64,000 nt of DNA from Octopus sinensis (lineage: Eukaryota): positions 7,068,001 to 7,132,000 of the forward strand of contig NC_043026.1 in the NCBI RefSeq assembly GCF_006345805.1, written 5' to 3'. Position numbers and translations under genes: made by a program. Below the pieces are notes generated by a model, which was given only the letters and a program-made list of their open reading frames with translations, had not been told where the DNA came from and did no database searches. Shown here piece by piece: positions 14,514 through 37,565 of this stretch; the first letter of the stretch is position 1; each line of letters opens with the position of its first letter.

Positions 14514-14905
14514 GTTCAGTAAAATTTAGATTCTGATGAATATGGTACTTAAGTTAAAGGCACCAGAATTTGGCATGGTATTATCCATATAAATCAAAAT
14601 GGGGTGATTATAATCAAAATAAGCAACAAGGATATCCAAGGTAGTGTAGTACAATCGTTTCATGCTACTTCATTTTATTAAACAATGTAAGTATTACATC
14701 AGTTTTAAAATGTAGAGCAATCTTCAGCCACTGATAGAATAAGTATAAAAATGAACATTGTCAATTTAATTTAAATTAGAAAATTCTATAAGTGGAAGAG
14801 TGCTCTACATTTTAAAACTGATGTAATACTTACATTGTTTAATTAAATGAAGTAGCATGAAACGATTGTACTACACTGCCTTGGATATCCTTGTTGCTTA
14901 TTTTG

Positions 14906-14911
<6 letters not shown>
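14514..14911. mobile_element. PLE-like terminal-repeat element with ~130-bp inverted duplication, inserted in (TA)n
   Basis: 14609-14740 is inverted relative to 14783-14911; single-arm homologue at 33996-34170; both flanked by (TA)n. Confidence 0.65.
14645..14731 (-). ncRNA. Putative type-I hammerhead ribozyme with long stem II insert
   Basis: Minus strand: GUGG-CUGAAGA-U-UGCU...AGCA-U-GAAAC-GAUU-GUA-CUAC; U.U mismatch at the base of stem II. Confidence 0.5.
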
Positions 14912-14946
<35 letters not shown>

Positions 14947-15576
14947 CACACACACACACACAAACATATTTCACTACAAGCTTCAATCTAAGTCATGAAA
15001 ATTATTATTAAAGAAATTCCTTCTTGGCATTCAGACATTTTACTTCCAGTTTTCGTCCCTAGGTGGTGCCACCATTCACTGCTACTGCAAGCTAGATTCG
15101 TTAATCATATCTCAATACAGTCGTACCCTGGTGTGACGTAATGACAACCCACTGGGCCACACCCTACTCAGGGTGTTAATGGCACACCAGCTGGTGTCTA
15201 TATAGTTACACTGAATACATGACAGGTGTTGTGGTTGTGGCTGTTGTTGTTTAACCCCAGGTCAGCCCCAATGCGGTAGGTCCATGATCAAAGAAACACC
15301 AGCTGTGACCAGTTCATATTTTATTCAGACCTCAGGTACCTCGGACTACGTAATCTAATGTGCCTTCCCTTGTTTTTCTTGTTTAGTTTCATGTCACCTT
15401 GATCCAGCACAATCATAATCGAACATGATCATTCTGGTTTTGCTGTTGTTGTTTAACCCTAGGTCAGTCCTGATCCAGCAGTGTTATGATTGAAAACACA
15501 CCAGCTGTGACTAGCTCTTCATTTTTCTGGCATAGTTTATCTAAGACTCAGAAATACTAAATTTCTAAATATCTCA

Positions 15577-15966
15577 TAGGCGCAGGAGTGGCTGTGTGGT
15601 AAGTAGCTTGCTAACCAACCACATGGTTCTGGGTTCAGTCCCACTGCGTGGCATCTTGGGCAAGTGTCTTCTACTATAGCCTCGGGCCGACCAAAGCCTT
15701 GTGAGTGGATTTGGTAGACGGAAACTGAAAGAAGCCCGTCGTATATATGTGTGTGTGTGTGTGTGTTTGTCCTCCTAGCATTGCTTGACAACCGATGCTG
15801 GTGTGCTTACGTCCCCGTCACTTAGCGGTTCGGCAAATGAGACCGATAGAATAAGTACTGGGCTTACAAAGAATAAGTCCCGGGGTCGATTTGCTCGACT
15901 AAAGGCAGTGCTCCAGCATGGCCGCAGTCAAATGACTGAAGCAAGTAAAAGAGTAAAAGAGTAAAG
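15577..15966 (+). mobile_element. SINE family A, full length
   Basis: A/B boxes, body, (GTAAAAGA)n tail. Confidence 0.9.
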
Positions 15967-16015
15967 AGAGATATGTACAGTGGTGGGGCAATAGAATGGT
16001 TGTATACTGTCAATC

Positions 16016-16306
16016 TAACGTGACAGTAGGGGATTACACCACTGCTGTTTAGCCCTAGGAAGCATCGACGCTTCCTGATGGCTTTGACACATTTTTTCCT
16101 GTGTCCTTATATATTTGCAAAGGGGAGACAAACACTCCCAGCAGCCAAGCCTGCATCTAGAGACACGCATGTTTCAGGATCTTTGTCCATCATCAGTCTA
16201 GAGTAGCTACTCTAGGACACAGGAAAAAAATGTGTCAAAGCCATCAGGAAGCGTCGATGCTTCCTAGGGCTAAACAGCAGTGGTGTAATCCCCTACTGTC
16301 ATGTTA
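16016..16306. mobile_element. Foldback element with ~87-bp near-perfect inverted arms
   Basis: 16021-16107 vs 16214-16301 are reverse complements except one homopolymer indel. Confidence 0.75.
16156..16202 (-). ncRNA. Putative minimal type-I hammerhead ribozyme
   Basis: Minus strand: UCUAGA-CUGAUGA-U-GGA-CAAAGA-UCC-U-GAAAC-AUGCGU-GUC-UCUAGA; 6-bp stem I, GUC cleavage triplet. Confidence 0.65.
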
Positions 16307-16420
16307 TATATCAGCCGAAGCGTTGTGTTAACAACAAACAAGATGAGGACAAATATCTGTCAAATATAAATAATGTAAATAATGTACATAATTCCTTGTC
16401 TCTAAATATAGAACTGTATT
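16307..16420 (+). mobile_element. 3' fragment of the hammerhead-bearing family seen at 30.5-30.9 kb
   Basis: CAGCCGAAGCGTTGTGTTAACAACAAACAAGATGAGGACAAATATC matches 30823-30890; ribozyme 5' half absent and GAAA changed to GAAG. Confidence 0.75.
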
Positions 16421-16430
16421 ATCTTGAAAA

Positions 16431-34164: not shown

Positions 34165-34193
<29 letters not shown>

Positions 34194-34198
<5 letters not shown>

Positions 34199-34625
34199 TT
34201 TCATTTCATTTCATTTGAGTTTGAGTCCATGCTCAGGCCAAGTCGAAGACTCCACCCTCAGAGTCTGGTGTGGTTGCCAGGTTGTATTCTCTGTTTAATT
34301 TTGACATGTGTAGGAGCGAGTTTGAGTCAGTTTGTGCTCGTTGTGTATATCCTGGGAGATGGGGTTCATCTCTAATGGTGCTTAGGTATCTATCCAGTTG
34401 CAATTTGAATGATTCCACACTGCATCCTGATAGATTTCTGACATGTACCGGAATAGAGTTGAATAGTTGTGCTCCTCGAACCAACAGACTTGACTCTCGC
34501 AGGGTTTTTGCTGCCTGGCCAGCCTTTTTGTTGATTGGTGGTAGCTGGCAGCATCTTCCGTGGCGCAGTGAGTGGTAGGTTTTGATACTAAAGTTTGGCA
34601 CCTTTTGCTCTATCATTTTCCAAAT
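34194..34625 (-). mobile_element. CR1/L2-group LINE 3' fragment
   Basis: WKMIEQKVPNF...GAQLFNSIPVHVRN...FKLQLDRYL..DEP ORF2 C-terminus; (TGAAA)n tail. Confidence 0.75.
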
Positions 34626-35217
34626 GTATATACATATATATGTATATGTGTACAGGCACACCTTGGCTTAAGTCATTTCAATTTAAGTTGTTCTTGATTA
34701 TTCATCAGTTTTCAAAAATAATACATGAAAAAATAAAAATCAAGTTATGTCATTTTACTCGACTTTACATCTGTCCACCACAAATATTGAAATCGTAAAA
34801 TCACTAGAAATCCATTAAAAGCACATAAAATCTTGTTACTGTACAATAAATAAGAATAAAAGCATACATGATCATATACAGTGATTCTACTAATTAGCTG
34901 TTAGAACTCAATATATTTAAGCTTGTGCTATTTTAATGGCTCTGATGATGTTGCACAAGCACTCAACCGTGAAGGCACTGACTCTTGTAGTAGAAACAGC
35001 AGTAAGCTAATGAAGTTGATTGCATAACTTCTGTTCTTTAATTACTCATTAACATACATAAGACATATGGTGAATGGTTGGTGTTAGGAAGGGCATCCAG
35101 CTGTAAAAATCCTGCCAAAACAGTCACAGAAGTCTGGTGCAGGCTTCGGCCTGGCAGGTTCTTGTGGTACCGTCCCGCCCATGCGAGCATGGAACATGGA
35201 TGTTAAATGATGATGAT

Positions 35218-35255
<38 letters not shown>

Positions 35256-36028
35256 ATATATATATATATATATATAAGTAGACAAATGAGTTATCTTATT
35301 ACGGATAATTTGAAAGATAACCGATACCTGGATCAATATTTTTATGGGCTCCTCGTGAGCGTTTGTCGAAAAGCTTGTTGTGCATTTTGTTGGAGAATTA
35401 AGTTCCTGGATTTTCCTGAAGAGAAAGCTGCATAATGGACTCCTTATTCACTTGGAATTAGGGACTTTGCAGACTTCGAAACATATGTCGAAAATAAAAT
35501 AATGGAATTTTGTTAAATCTTAGTTCAGCTCCATTCTTTCCTATACTTTATATATATATTTAAATATGTAAAATACAAAATGGGACAAGAACACAAAACA
35601 TCCAGGTGATACAAAAAAGGGACAACAAAACATCCAGATAGACAATACAAAGAAAACAATGAGGGGTCATTCGGAGTTTTCTTTCCTCAGTCAAGTTCCA
35701 GATTATCGGCTGGTTATACTCAAGATTGCTCCAATCTGGCCAGCCCCAAGGAAAAACTAAGCTAAGAGCATTAGTTTCCTTGGCAGGAAGCAGCGAATGT
35801 ATATGAAAAGAAGGATGGAAAAAATGGAGAATGTTGCACAAATACAAATAACAGGACATAACAACAGGTGTCTTTCAGTCACAGGGAGGAATATAGATGT
35901 CGCATGGACGACGGCCGTACCACGAAAGAAAGGTCAGGCTTGGCCAAACACTGCTTACATGGGGAGAGAAGAGAGAGAGGTAGAGGCAGAGGGACATATA
36001 TATTTATATATATATATATATATCTATG

Positions 36029-36090
<62 letters not shown>

Positions 36091-37530
36091 TATATATATA
36101 AGATTTTTATACATATGAATACATATACACACACCCATGCATATATGTATGTACATGTATATGCATTTAATATTATGTATATCTATCTATCTACCTATAT
36201 TATGTACACACACACACACACCACATATATATATATACACATATACATATATATAACACGGTAAAATTTTTTTTTTTTCATTCCCTTCGAAAATTGCTCT
36301 AAAGTGTGGTTTTGGTCATTTTGACTGGACTGCTTCTTCTAGTGTGTAAAAATTACCTATTAAAGGTAGTTTCCTCTTGTTGCTAAATGTACACTATTTT
36401 ATATGTGACCTCGTGAGTACCGCCGGCGAATTTTTTTTCCTCTGGCTTCCCTTCTCAGGATCTTTTCTTCTCCTATGTTTCCGACAAGAGCTCCGCTCGA
36501 AACGTTAAACCCCCTCCTTCTTCCCTTCTTTCCTGAGCATCCAATATACTATATTTGTTCCACGTCCTCCGCGCTTGTTGTGTTTTTTTGTGCTCTCTTG
36601 TTTGGATTAACTATATATATATATGTATATATATAATATATATATATAAAGCTGAAGTTGTCTGTGTTGTGGCAGGTTTGGTAGCCTTCAACTAACACTA
36701 TCCCTCTCCCCTCTGAAAAAACCCTGCGGCACAAGTTGACCGAAATTGAGAGTCTGATAGAAGAAGGCTTGCCTCTTCATTCCGTAGAAGAAAAATTCAA
36801 CTTGGACCATGTTAACACCAAAAATTATTTACATCAAAAACGTGTGCTTCTTTTCTATGAAAATCCCTATTTTTAACGATTTTGTGTGTTGACTGCTGTG
36901 TCAACCATTTTTTGTGGTAAATTTCAACAGAAAATGTTCACTTAAAGAGAATAACAAGCTACATCATCATCATTTAGCGTCCGCTTTCCAGCTAGCATGG
37001 TTGGACGGTTCAACGGGGGTCGGGAAGCCAGAAGGCTGCACCAGGCTCCAGTCTTATCTGGCAGTGTTTCCTACGGCTGGATGCCCTTCCTAACGCCAAC
37101 CACTCCCGTGAGTGTAGTGGGTGCTTTTTACGTGCCACCCGCACAGGTGCCAGATGGGGCTGGCAAACGCACGGACGGATGGTGCTTTTTACGTGCCACC
37201 AGCACGGGGGCCAGCAAGGCTGGCAACGGCTACATAATGCAATTTTTACTTTACAAAATTCCAATTCTAAAGGTCAAAACAAACCCGAGCATATATATAC
37301 ATATATATAACACGGTAAAAGTTTTTTTTTTTCATTCCCTTCGAAAATTGCTCTTAAAGTGTGGTTTTGGTCATTTTGACTGACTGCTTCTTCTAGTGTG
37401 TAAAAATTACCTATTAAAGGTAGTTTCCTCTTGTGCTTAAATGTACACTATTTTATATGTGACCTCGTGAGTACCGCCGGCGAATTTTTTTTCCTCTGTC
37501 TTCCCTTCTCGGGATCTTTTCTTCTCCTAT

Positions 37531-37565
37531 GTTTCCGACGAAGAGCTCCGCTCGAAACGTTAAAC
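37531..37565 (+). ncRNA. Hammerhead-like motif with U4-to-C core change
   Basis: GUUU-CCGACGA-A-GAGC-UCC-GCUC-GAAAC-GUU-AAAC; duplicate at 36477-36510 lacks one core G. Confidence 0.5.

What the first reader, a model, noticed from the sequence alone, without database searches (positions are those of the whole stretch)
14514..37565. Four distinct short-element families each carry a hammerhead motif
Seen: core motifs with paired stem I and palindromic or near-palindromic stem III at 14645-14731 and 34030-34117 (GUA), 16156-16202 (GUC), 30537-30582 and 30795-30840 (GUU), and 37531-37565 (GUU). Their flanks show no similarity by eye, most adjoin (TA)n, and three occur in inverted-repeat structures. 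Inference: a diverse, high-density population of non-autonomous PLE-derived or retrozyme-like elements, which would place many potential self-cleavage sites in introns.
Basis: partly seen in the sequence, partly recalled or inferred. Interest (0 to 1): 0.72.

Follow-up and report, generated by a model that had tools for sequence, protein, structure and literature searches.

The report
Hammerhead-bearing Penelope retrotransposon ends, many families
These self-cutting-RNA motifs are real and are mostly the leftover ends of several unrelated Penelope-type jumping genes, a known and genome-wide feature; the unusual parts are two families with an altered core letter that likely slows cutting, and one coding element whose end starts with a tRNA-like sequence that likely acts as its promoter.

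Summary
The hammerhead motifs are real (7 hits; shuffles at most 1, 0 of 150 reach it). Two more families lie in the same span (35410-35495, 34937-35009). They are not four separate non-autonomous families. A (14646, 34030) and E run upstream into Hydra-type Penelope-like element (PLE) genes, C (30537, 30795) into a Penelope/Poseidon gene, and D (37531) likely into a Neptune-type gene. Only B (16156) is non-coding: a 354-nt circularly permuted, retrozyme-like unit. Hammerheads in PLE ends are published, including one from an octopus. Density is genome-wide (22 hits in 620 kb, about 34 per Mb); the 40 kb beside the window has none. Variant features: U4C core in B (42 of 44 copies) and most of D (5,965 against 2,246 exact motifs); a tRNA-like head in C, where 21 of 30 copies begin. 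No host exon was found, so 'in introns' is untested; three of the six sites are predicted to be zipped into long hairpins. The scan found the tRNA head and U4C cores before on other DNA. Cleavage is not shown.

The parts
14514..14767 (-). Family A, long arm: 3' end of a Hydra-type PLE with its 3' extension (14514-14603); hammerhead 14646-14731, GUA, H17 at 14650
14749..14910 (+). Family A, inverted arm; first three core letters missing; ends in (TA)n
15967..16215 (-). Family B arm, part of a 354-nt non-coding unit; hammerhead 16156-16202, GUC, H17 at 16162; this copy has U4, the family has C4
16212..16303 (+). Family B inverted, truncated arm (no hammerhead)
16307..16417 (+). Family C tail fragment beginning inside stem II, abutting the B hairpin
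30460..30622 (-). Family C inverted arm; hammerhead 30537-30582, GUU, H17 at 30542
30619..30679 (+). Family C tRNA-like head (A-box-like start; the B-box part is deleted in this copy)
30680..30746 (+). (AAT)n/(AAC)n spacer between head and tail of family C
30747..30897 (+). Family C tail; hammerhead 30795-30840, GUU, H17 at 30835, stem I shortened by one mismatch
33996..34168 (-). Family A second copy between (TA)n runs; hammerhead 34030-34117, GUA, H17 at 34035; 5' side carries an inverted piece of the 3' extension
34937..35009 (+). Family F: old copy of a further hammerhead-like repeat; relatives read T at 35001, which makes stem III palindromic
35277..35548 (+).
36395..36612 (+). Family D second copy (G8 deleted), inside a 1.07-kb local duplication
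37452..37667 (+). Family D copy; minimal hammerhead 37531-37565 with C4 core (CCGACGA), GUU, H17 at 37561; ends in (TA)n

Best explanation
The motifs are hammerheads in the terminal repeats of several unrelated Penelope-like retrotransposon (PLE) lineages, left as short stubs that likely arose when the element's enzyme nicked AT-rich DNA, began copying its RNA just downstream of the hammerhead and stopped early or at the RNA's start. Shown: A, C and E continue upstream into RT/GIY-YIG genes; 3' ends are fixed at one or two sites while 5' ends vary; many insertions have an inverted second arm; B is a 354-nt non-coding unit whose end runs into its own start. Inferred from the anole PLE (PMC11167929): reverse transcription starts internally at those 3' sites and runs across the cleavage site, so the template was uncut or rejoined RNA. 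Inferred: in the parent element's tandem RNA two motifs pair through the palindromic stem III and cut slowly, perhaps with protein help; lone genomic stubs mostly do not cut. B likely borrows PLE enzymes, possibly from a small circular RNA. In C the tRNA-like head likely sets the RNA start, which would explain the SINE-like stubs. C4 cores in B and D likely slow cutting without blocking spread.
For: Motif excess over shuffles in the window and in 62 grid-chosen 10-kb regions: 22 hits against 0.65, 15 of 22 with palindromic stem III against 8 of 26 in shuffles. All five families are dispersed repeats. A: GIY-YIG domain upstream in L051 with CxCX5C linker and CxxC..E..N..CxH, the Hydra marks of PMC8557442 section 11. 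E: RT and endonuclease in L157, L152. C: of 24 RT-anchored loci, 15 have the head and 16 the hammerhead tail downstream. D: a sister repeat with the same stem II follows a Neptune-type gene in L108 and L165, and such a gene lies upstream of D in L302. 3' ends: A 19 of 30 at +115-119, 11 longer; E 16 of 29 at +139/141, 13 longer; B two clusters about 55 nt apart. B folds as a circle with z -8.1.
Against: No cleavage was measured, and no read ends pile up at the C site (unstranded fragmented cDNA, other organism). Within families there is almost no covariation: two-sided changes in 0 of 390 pair cells (B), 1 of 259 (D), 0 of 268 (C), and core positions are not significantly more conserved than other positions (P 0.84, 0.07, 0.07). 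The GIY-YIG Pfam scores are just under the curated cut-off (22.4 and 17.1 against 22.6 bits) and two RT-region pieces hit nothing. D's link to a gene rests on one locus across low-complexity DNA plus a sister family. No intact full-length element was fetched. B's helper is unidentified.
Confidence: 0.85

Rival explanations
1. All families are independent non-autonomous retrozymes or SINEs that replicate through self-cut circular RNAs.
For: B fits in part: non-coding, 354 nt, circularly permuted, copies longer than one unit, strongly self-paired. Most C and D copies are short with a shared 5' start: C 21 of 30 at -21..0 of the head, D 17 of 29 at -72..-86.
Against: A, C, E are continuous with coding genes. 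No B locus of 60 has two same-strand hammerheads one unit apart. B's family core is C4.
Confidence: 0.08
2. The motifs are active self-cleavage sites in host introns and shape host transcripts.
For: About 9 x 10^4 intact-looking motifs genome-wide; family C sequence is present in RNA-seq of a related organism; A2, B, D1, E have small folding penalties (3.7-8.5 kcal/mol).
Against: No exon found in the window. A1, C1, C2 are predicted locked in hairpins. Copies decay at near-neutral rates. Published metazoan PLE hammerheads cut weakly, and as dimers (PMC4209133).
Confidence: 0.05
3. Chance matches in AT-rich, repeat-rich DNA.
For: Single hits do occur in shuffles (up to 2 per 620 kb); F alone looked doubtful.
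Against: 7 against at most 0.09; 22 against 0.65; each motif is a family trait, e.g. 8,211 exact D motifs against 0 for the reversed pattern.
Confidence: 0.01

Closest known systems
Minimal and small-stem-III type I hammerheads in pLTRs of metazoan PLEs (Cervera and De la Pena 2014, PMC4209133; parts 1-2 of 4 read)
   Same: Many families per genome, mostly single and dispersed; extra base after A9; short stem I; palindromic stem III; opposite-strand pairs 100-700 bp apart.
   Different: Count here about 9 x 10^4 (rough range 5-14 x 10^4) against 2,000-9,000 reported there, by different descriptors; stem II insertions up to 55-59 nt (A, E); C4 cores fixed in whole lineages, which the parts read do not report (they report U3-A8).
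Hydra-clade PLEs, including Hydra-1_oBim of Octopus bimaculoides (Craig et al. 2021, PMC8557442; passages, section 11, supplement part 2)
   Same: (TA)n targets, canonical hammerhead near the 3' end, CxxC/CxH endonuclease without CCHH, CxCX5C linker in A.
   Different: A and E motifs differ in sequence from Hydra-1_oBim; E shows no CxCX5C in the piece read; every core in File S2 has U4.
Poseidon PAc of the green anole (Frangieh et al. 2024, PMC11167929; parts 1-2 of 4 read)
   Same: RT, C-terminal GIY-YIG, hammerhead in the terminal repeat, fixed 3' ends; there reverse transcription starts internally and does not need cleavage.
   Different: Family C has a tRNA-like head and (AAT)n between the stop codon and the hammerhead, and most short copies begin at the head; not described for PAc in the parts read.
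Metazoan non-LTR retrozymes (PMC7229834, passages; bioRxiv 10.64898/2026.07.22.740005, parts 1-3 of 5; supplements not seen)
   Same: B: non-coding, 354 nt, 43% GC, self-paired, type I hammerhead, PLE-style insertions.
   Different: No tandem of two hammerheads seen; C4 core; two-armed inverted insertions; circular RNA not shown.
TRIMp3 elements Cassandra and Helenus (PMC10886601, passages) and Schistosoma promoter-plus-hammerhead SINEs (PMC6765202, passages)
   Same: A small-RNA-derived promoter-like piece inside a terminal repeat, or ahead of a hammerhead.
   Different: Those are non-coding; family C's head sits in a protein-coding PLE.

Membership tests
Type I hammerhead ribozyme | Core C3-U4-G5-A6-N7-G8-A9 and G12-A13-A14, A15.1-U16.1, H17 | tested here: met
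   A, C, E and the window's B copy
Type I hammerhead ribozyme | U4 in the family core of B and D | tested here: not met
   C4 in 42 of 44 B copies; D 5,965 C4 against 2,246 U4 exact motifs. U4C is a known weakened natural variant (PMC3088659 passage)
Type I hammerhead ribozyme | Stems I-III can pair | tested here: met
   stem III is 2 bp in C and D and pairs only between two copies
Type I hammerhead ribozyme | Covariation of stems within a family | tested here: inconclusive
   1 two-sided change in 917 pair cells over B, C, D; copies are too alike and decay after insertion. Across families stems differ while the core stays, but the scan demanded pairing
Type I hammerhead ribozyme | Self-cleavage after H17 | not testable with these tools
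   needs transcription assay; one search saw no end pile-up in an unsuitable library
EN+ Penelope-like element (A, C, E) | RT followed by C-terminal GIY-YIG endonuclease upstream of the repeat | tested here: met
   C; E; A: endonuclease only, RT not reached
EN+ Penelope-like element (A, C, E) | 5' truncation, fixed 3' ends with optional tail, inverted 5' arm | tested here: met
EN+ Penelope-like element (D) | Continuous with an RT/endonuclease gene | tested here: inconclusive
   one locus (L302) across low-complexity DNA; sister repeat linked in L108, L165; 3 other long copies fetched showed no such gene
Hydra clade (A, E) | CxxC and CxH around E and N, no CCHH, CxCX5C linker, (TA)n target | tested here: met
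   A all four; E lacks a visible CxCX5C; no tree was built
Non-LTR retrozyme (B) | Non-coding 150-400-nt self-paired unit with type I hammerhead | tested here: met
Non-LTR retrozyme (B) | At least two tandem units each with a hammerhead | tested here: not met
   0 of 60 loci (some are duplicates of one place)
Non-LTR retrozyme (B) | Accumulates as circular RNA | not tested
   no reads were laid on B
tRNA-derived SINE (C) | tRNA-like head with A and B boxes at the 5' end of copies | tested here: inconclusive
   box-like motifs by eye (consensus recalled) and 21 of 30 starts at the head; ARAGORN 0 of 12 loci, Rfam no tRNA in 4 loci
tRNA-derived SINE (C) | Non-coding, separate from its helper | tested here: not met
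   head follows the PLE stop codon: 9 of 30 head copies run into the gene, 15 of 24 RT loci carry it
tRNA-derived SINE (C) | Transcribed by RNA polymerase III | not testable with these tools
   only indirect: no shared four-T run in 1.2 kb of gene

The most novel reading that the evidence does not exclude
Family C is a protein-coding Penelope element read by RNA polymerase III from a captured tRNA-derived head, so one element yields both coding RNA and thousands of SINE-like hammerhead stubs; and several lineages in this genome (B, two thirds of D, other clusters) independently fixed the slow C4 core while spreading, so PLE hammerheads are tuned down or dispensable, with B a circular-RNA parasite that needs little cutting.
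Probability: 0.3. Interest if true: 0.7.

Novelty: new variant of a known kind. Interest (0 to 1): 0.45.

Why it matters
The headline (many PLE hammerhead families in an animal genome) is known. What this genome adds is a natural test set for an open question, what the PLE hammerhead is for: sister subfamilies of D that differ at U4/C4 and both spread to thousands of copies, a non-coding unit with C4, and about 10^5 motifs in all. If the tRNA-like head of family C is a working polymerase III promoter, it would be an unusual way for a coding retrotransposon to be transcribed and a direct route by which SINE-like elements arise from PLEs.

Tried and rejected
Rfam scan: only microsatellite-driven miRNA hits among the rows shown. 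Site F as a host exon: rejected, reads come from a repeat family 90-95% alike. Host gene in the window: 30 of 130 candidate frames from unmasked DNA were scanned in Pfam, none passed a cut-off, so intron position and strand bias stay untested. Family C as a free tRNA-SINE: rejected. Family B as a long tandem array: not seen. The gag-like frame upstream of B in L073/L085 is a neighbouring element with one shared junction, not taken as B's helper. Four long D copies extended by 10 kb: shared sequence ends in (CATA)n, only one shows a PLE gene. 81-bp satellite at 56297-64000: has CTGAGGA next to GAAAC but no hammerhead fold even with relaxed rules. Run search: no RNA holder listed. Read ends at the C cleavage site: none in three unstranded runs, uninformative. 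Lunse et al. (PMC5785218) is not held, so its variant list could not be checked.
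Full report
OBSERVATION. A scan for type I hammerheads (core CYGANGA...GAAA, stems I-III, extra base allowed) finds 7 motifs in the window; shuffles in 300- or 2,000-base blocks give a mean of at most 0.09 and none of 150 reaches 7. The sixth listed site, 30795-30840, has only 3 bp of stem I in this copy. Two are new: E at 35410-35495 and F at 34937-35009. The families share no flank similarity, three sit in inverted repeats, and (TA)n adjoins A, D and E but not B or C. The 37531 core has C at position 4.

CONTEXT. The window is G000:C30:7068001-7132000 in a 2.72-Gb genome. 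I take it for an octopus from its SINEs (recalled) and from earlier scan notes. Each family is a dispersed repeat with 40 or more scored matches. In 62 grid-chosen 10-kb regions there are 22 motifs against 0.65 in shuffles, about 34 per Mb or 9 x 10^4 in the genome (rough range 5-14 x 10^4); 15 of 22 have a palindromic stem III against 8 of 26 shuffled hits; over all loci held, 14 of 34 motif clusters recur in more than one locus (overlapping loci can inflate this). The window has 7 against 2.3 expected (Poisson P 0.009, but it was picked for its hits and copies come in pairs); the 40 kb beside it has none. It is a rich sample of a genome-wide feature, not a special cluster.

FAMILIES A AND E. 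Both have sharp 3' ends and ragged 5' ends. A runs upstream into a GIY-YIG domain (L051; Pfam 22.4 bits, cut-off 22.6) with a CxCX5C linker and CxxC..E..N..CxH, the marks of the Hydra clade, which targets (TA)n (PMC8557442 section 11). E runs into RT and a similar endonuclease (L157, L152). Each has a short and a long 3' end: A 19 of 30 and 11 of 30, E 16 of 29 and 13 of 29. In the window the distal extension appears inverted at the 5' side (34125-34168, 35277-35331), as described for the PLE tail. A hammerhead of an octopus Hydra element is already in File S2 of that paper.

FAMILY C. Between the two window copies lies a tRNA-like head and an (AAT)n run. Of 30 copies picked by the head alone, 20 have the hammerhead tail within 400 bases, 21 begin within 21 bases of the head's start and 9 continue into the end of a gene. 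That gene is a Penelope/Poseidon-type RT plus endonuclease (clade by recalled motifs); of 24 loci picked by the RT, 15 carry the head and 16 the tail downstream. So C is the end of a coding element, and most short copies start at the head. ARAGORN (0 of 12 loci) and Rfam (4 loci) do not call the head a tRNA. A short natural hairpin at the head's start could also favour ends there.

FAMILY D. Two subfamilies: 5,965 exact motifs with C4 and 2,246 with U4. In 30 flank-anchored copies a flank letter tracks the core: 18 C4 and 2 U4 with one, 10 U4 with the other, so C4 is inherited, not decay. 17 of 29 copies start 72-86 bases before the core; 2 extend 1.4 kb or more. One long copy has a Neptune-type RT and endonuclease upstream (L302), and a sister repeat with the same stem II follows such a gene in L108 and L165. 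The link is likely, not shown.

FAMILY B. A 354-nt unit whose end runs into its own start; copies end at two sites about 55 bases apart, vary at the 5' side, reach more than one unit and often have inverted arms. No coding partner was found. As a circle it folds with z -8.1. 42 of 44 flank-anchored copies have C4; the window's canonical U4 is likely CpG decay. No locus of 60 has two tandem hammerheads, so it works like a retrozyme but fails the tandem test of bioRxiv 10.64898/2026.07.22.740005. The scan holds no look-alike of it.

MECHANISM. In the anole PLE the enzyme nicks AT-rich DNA, starts reverse transcription at two internal sites, and does not need hammerhead cleavage; the hammerhead cuts only with protein present (PMC11167929). 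Carried over by inference, this gives what is seen: fixed 3' ends downstream of the motif, copies that cross the cleavage site, and stubs that end early or at the RNA start. Palindromic stem III suggests cutting as pairs in tandem RNA (PMC4209133). U4C lowers activity but is tolerated in a viroid (PMC3088659 passage).

AGAINST. Within B, C and D there is 1 two-sided change in 917 pair cells and no significant extra conservation of the core, as expected for dead copies but giving no positive support. In their own insertions A1, C1 and C2 would pay 68-104 kcal/mol to fold the hammerhead; A2, B, D1, E pay 3.7-8.5. Family C sequence, gene end included, is present in three RNA-seq runs of a related organism, with no pile of ends (unstranded, one study). 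No host exon was found.

NOVELTY. PLE hammerheads, their diversity and their non-autonomous derivatives are in print. Nine searches of the held library listed no paper on a tRNA-headed coding PLE, on lineage-wide C4 cores in PLEs, or on a hammerhead census in octopus; subscription papers, Lunse et al., Repbase and preprint supplements could not be seen and may bear on this. Other papers seen as passages only: PMC6765202, PMC3376415, PMC10886601, PMC8967140, PMC4758252, PMC7229834; PMC7761336 parts 2-3 of 6. The scan had noted the tRNA head and C4 cores before; I reached both before looking. Verdict: new variants of a known kind, interest 0.45.

Noticed in passing
window 56297-64000: 81-bp satellite, about 95 copies, with an internal palindrome and CTGAGGA next to GAAAC on the minus strand; no hammerhead fold found.
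   Followed up: partly
window 36240-37308 and 37294-38351: 1.07-kb tandem duplication, 94.8% alike with 29 gap openings and 11 mismatches; may be an assembly artefact of long reads.
   Followed up: partly
window 43015-44230 (+): Broken RT with SMDVISLYPSI and YVDD motifs; looks like a PLE of Naiad type (recalled motifs).
   Followed up: no
window 12888-14180 and 17021-17486: 127-bp tandem repeats, 10 and 4 copies, with related dispersed pieces nearby.
   Followed up: no
window 41082-41924 (-), 53499-54833 (-), 50100-53135 (+): Pieces of LINE-type RT and endonuclease frames of other classes.
   Followed up: no
L108, L165 (after the endonuclease gene), L256: Sister repeat of D whose core reads CTGTTGA or CTGTAGA, a change at A6.
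   Followed up: no
L172, L180, L184: Repeats with TTGANAA cores (U3-A8 variant) in random regions.
   Followed up: no
L062, L313, L093, L195 clusters: Further families with C4 cores; 4 of 22 random-region motifs have C4.
   Followed up: partly
L155 (G000:C6:84704000-84713999), L085: [quoted passage not shown]
   Followed up: partly
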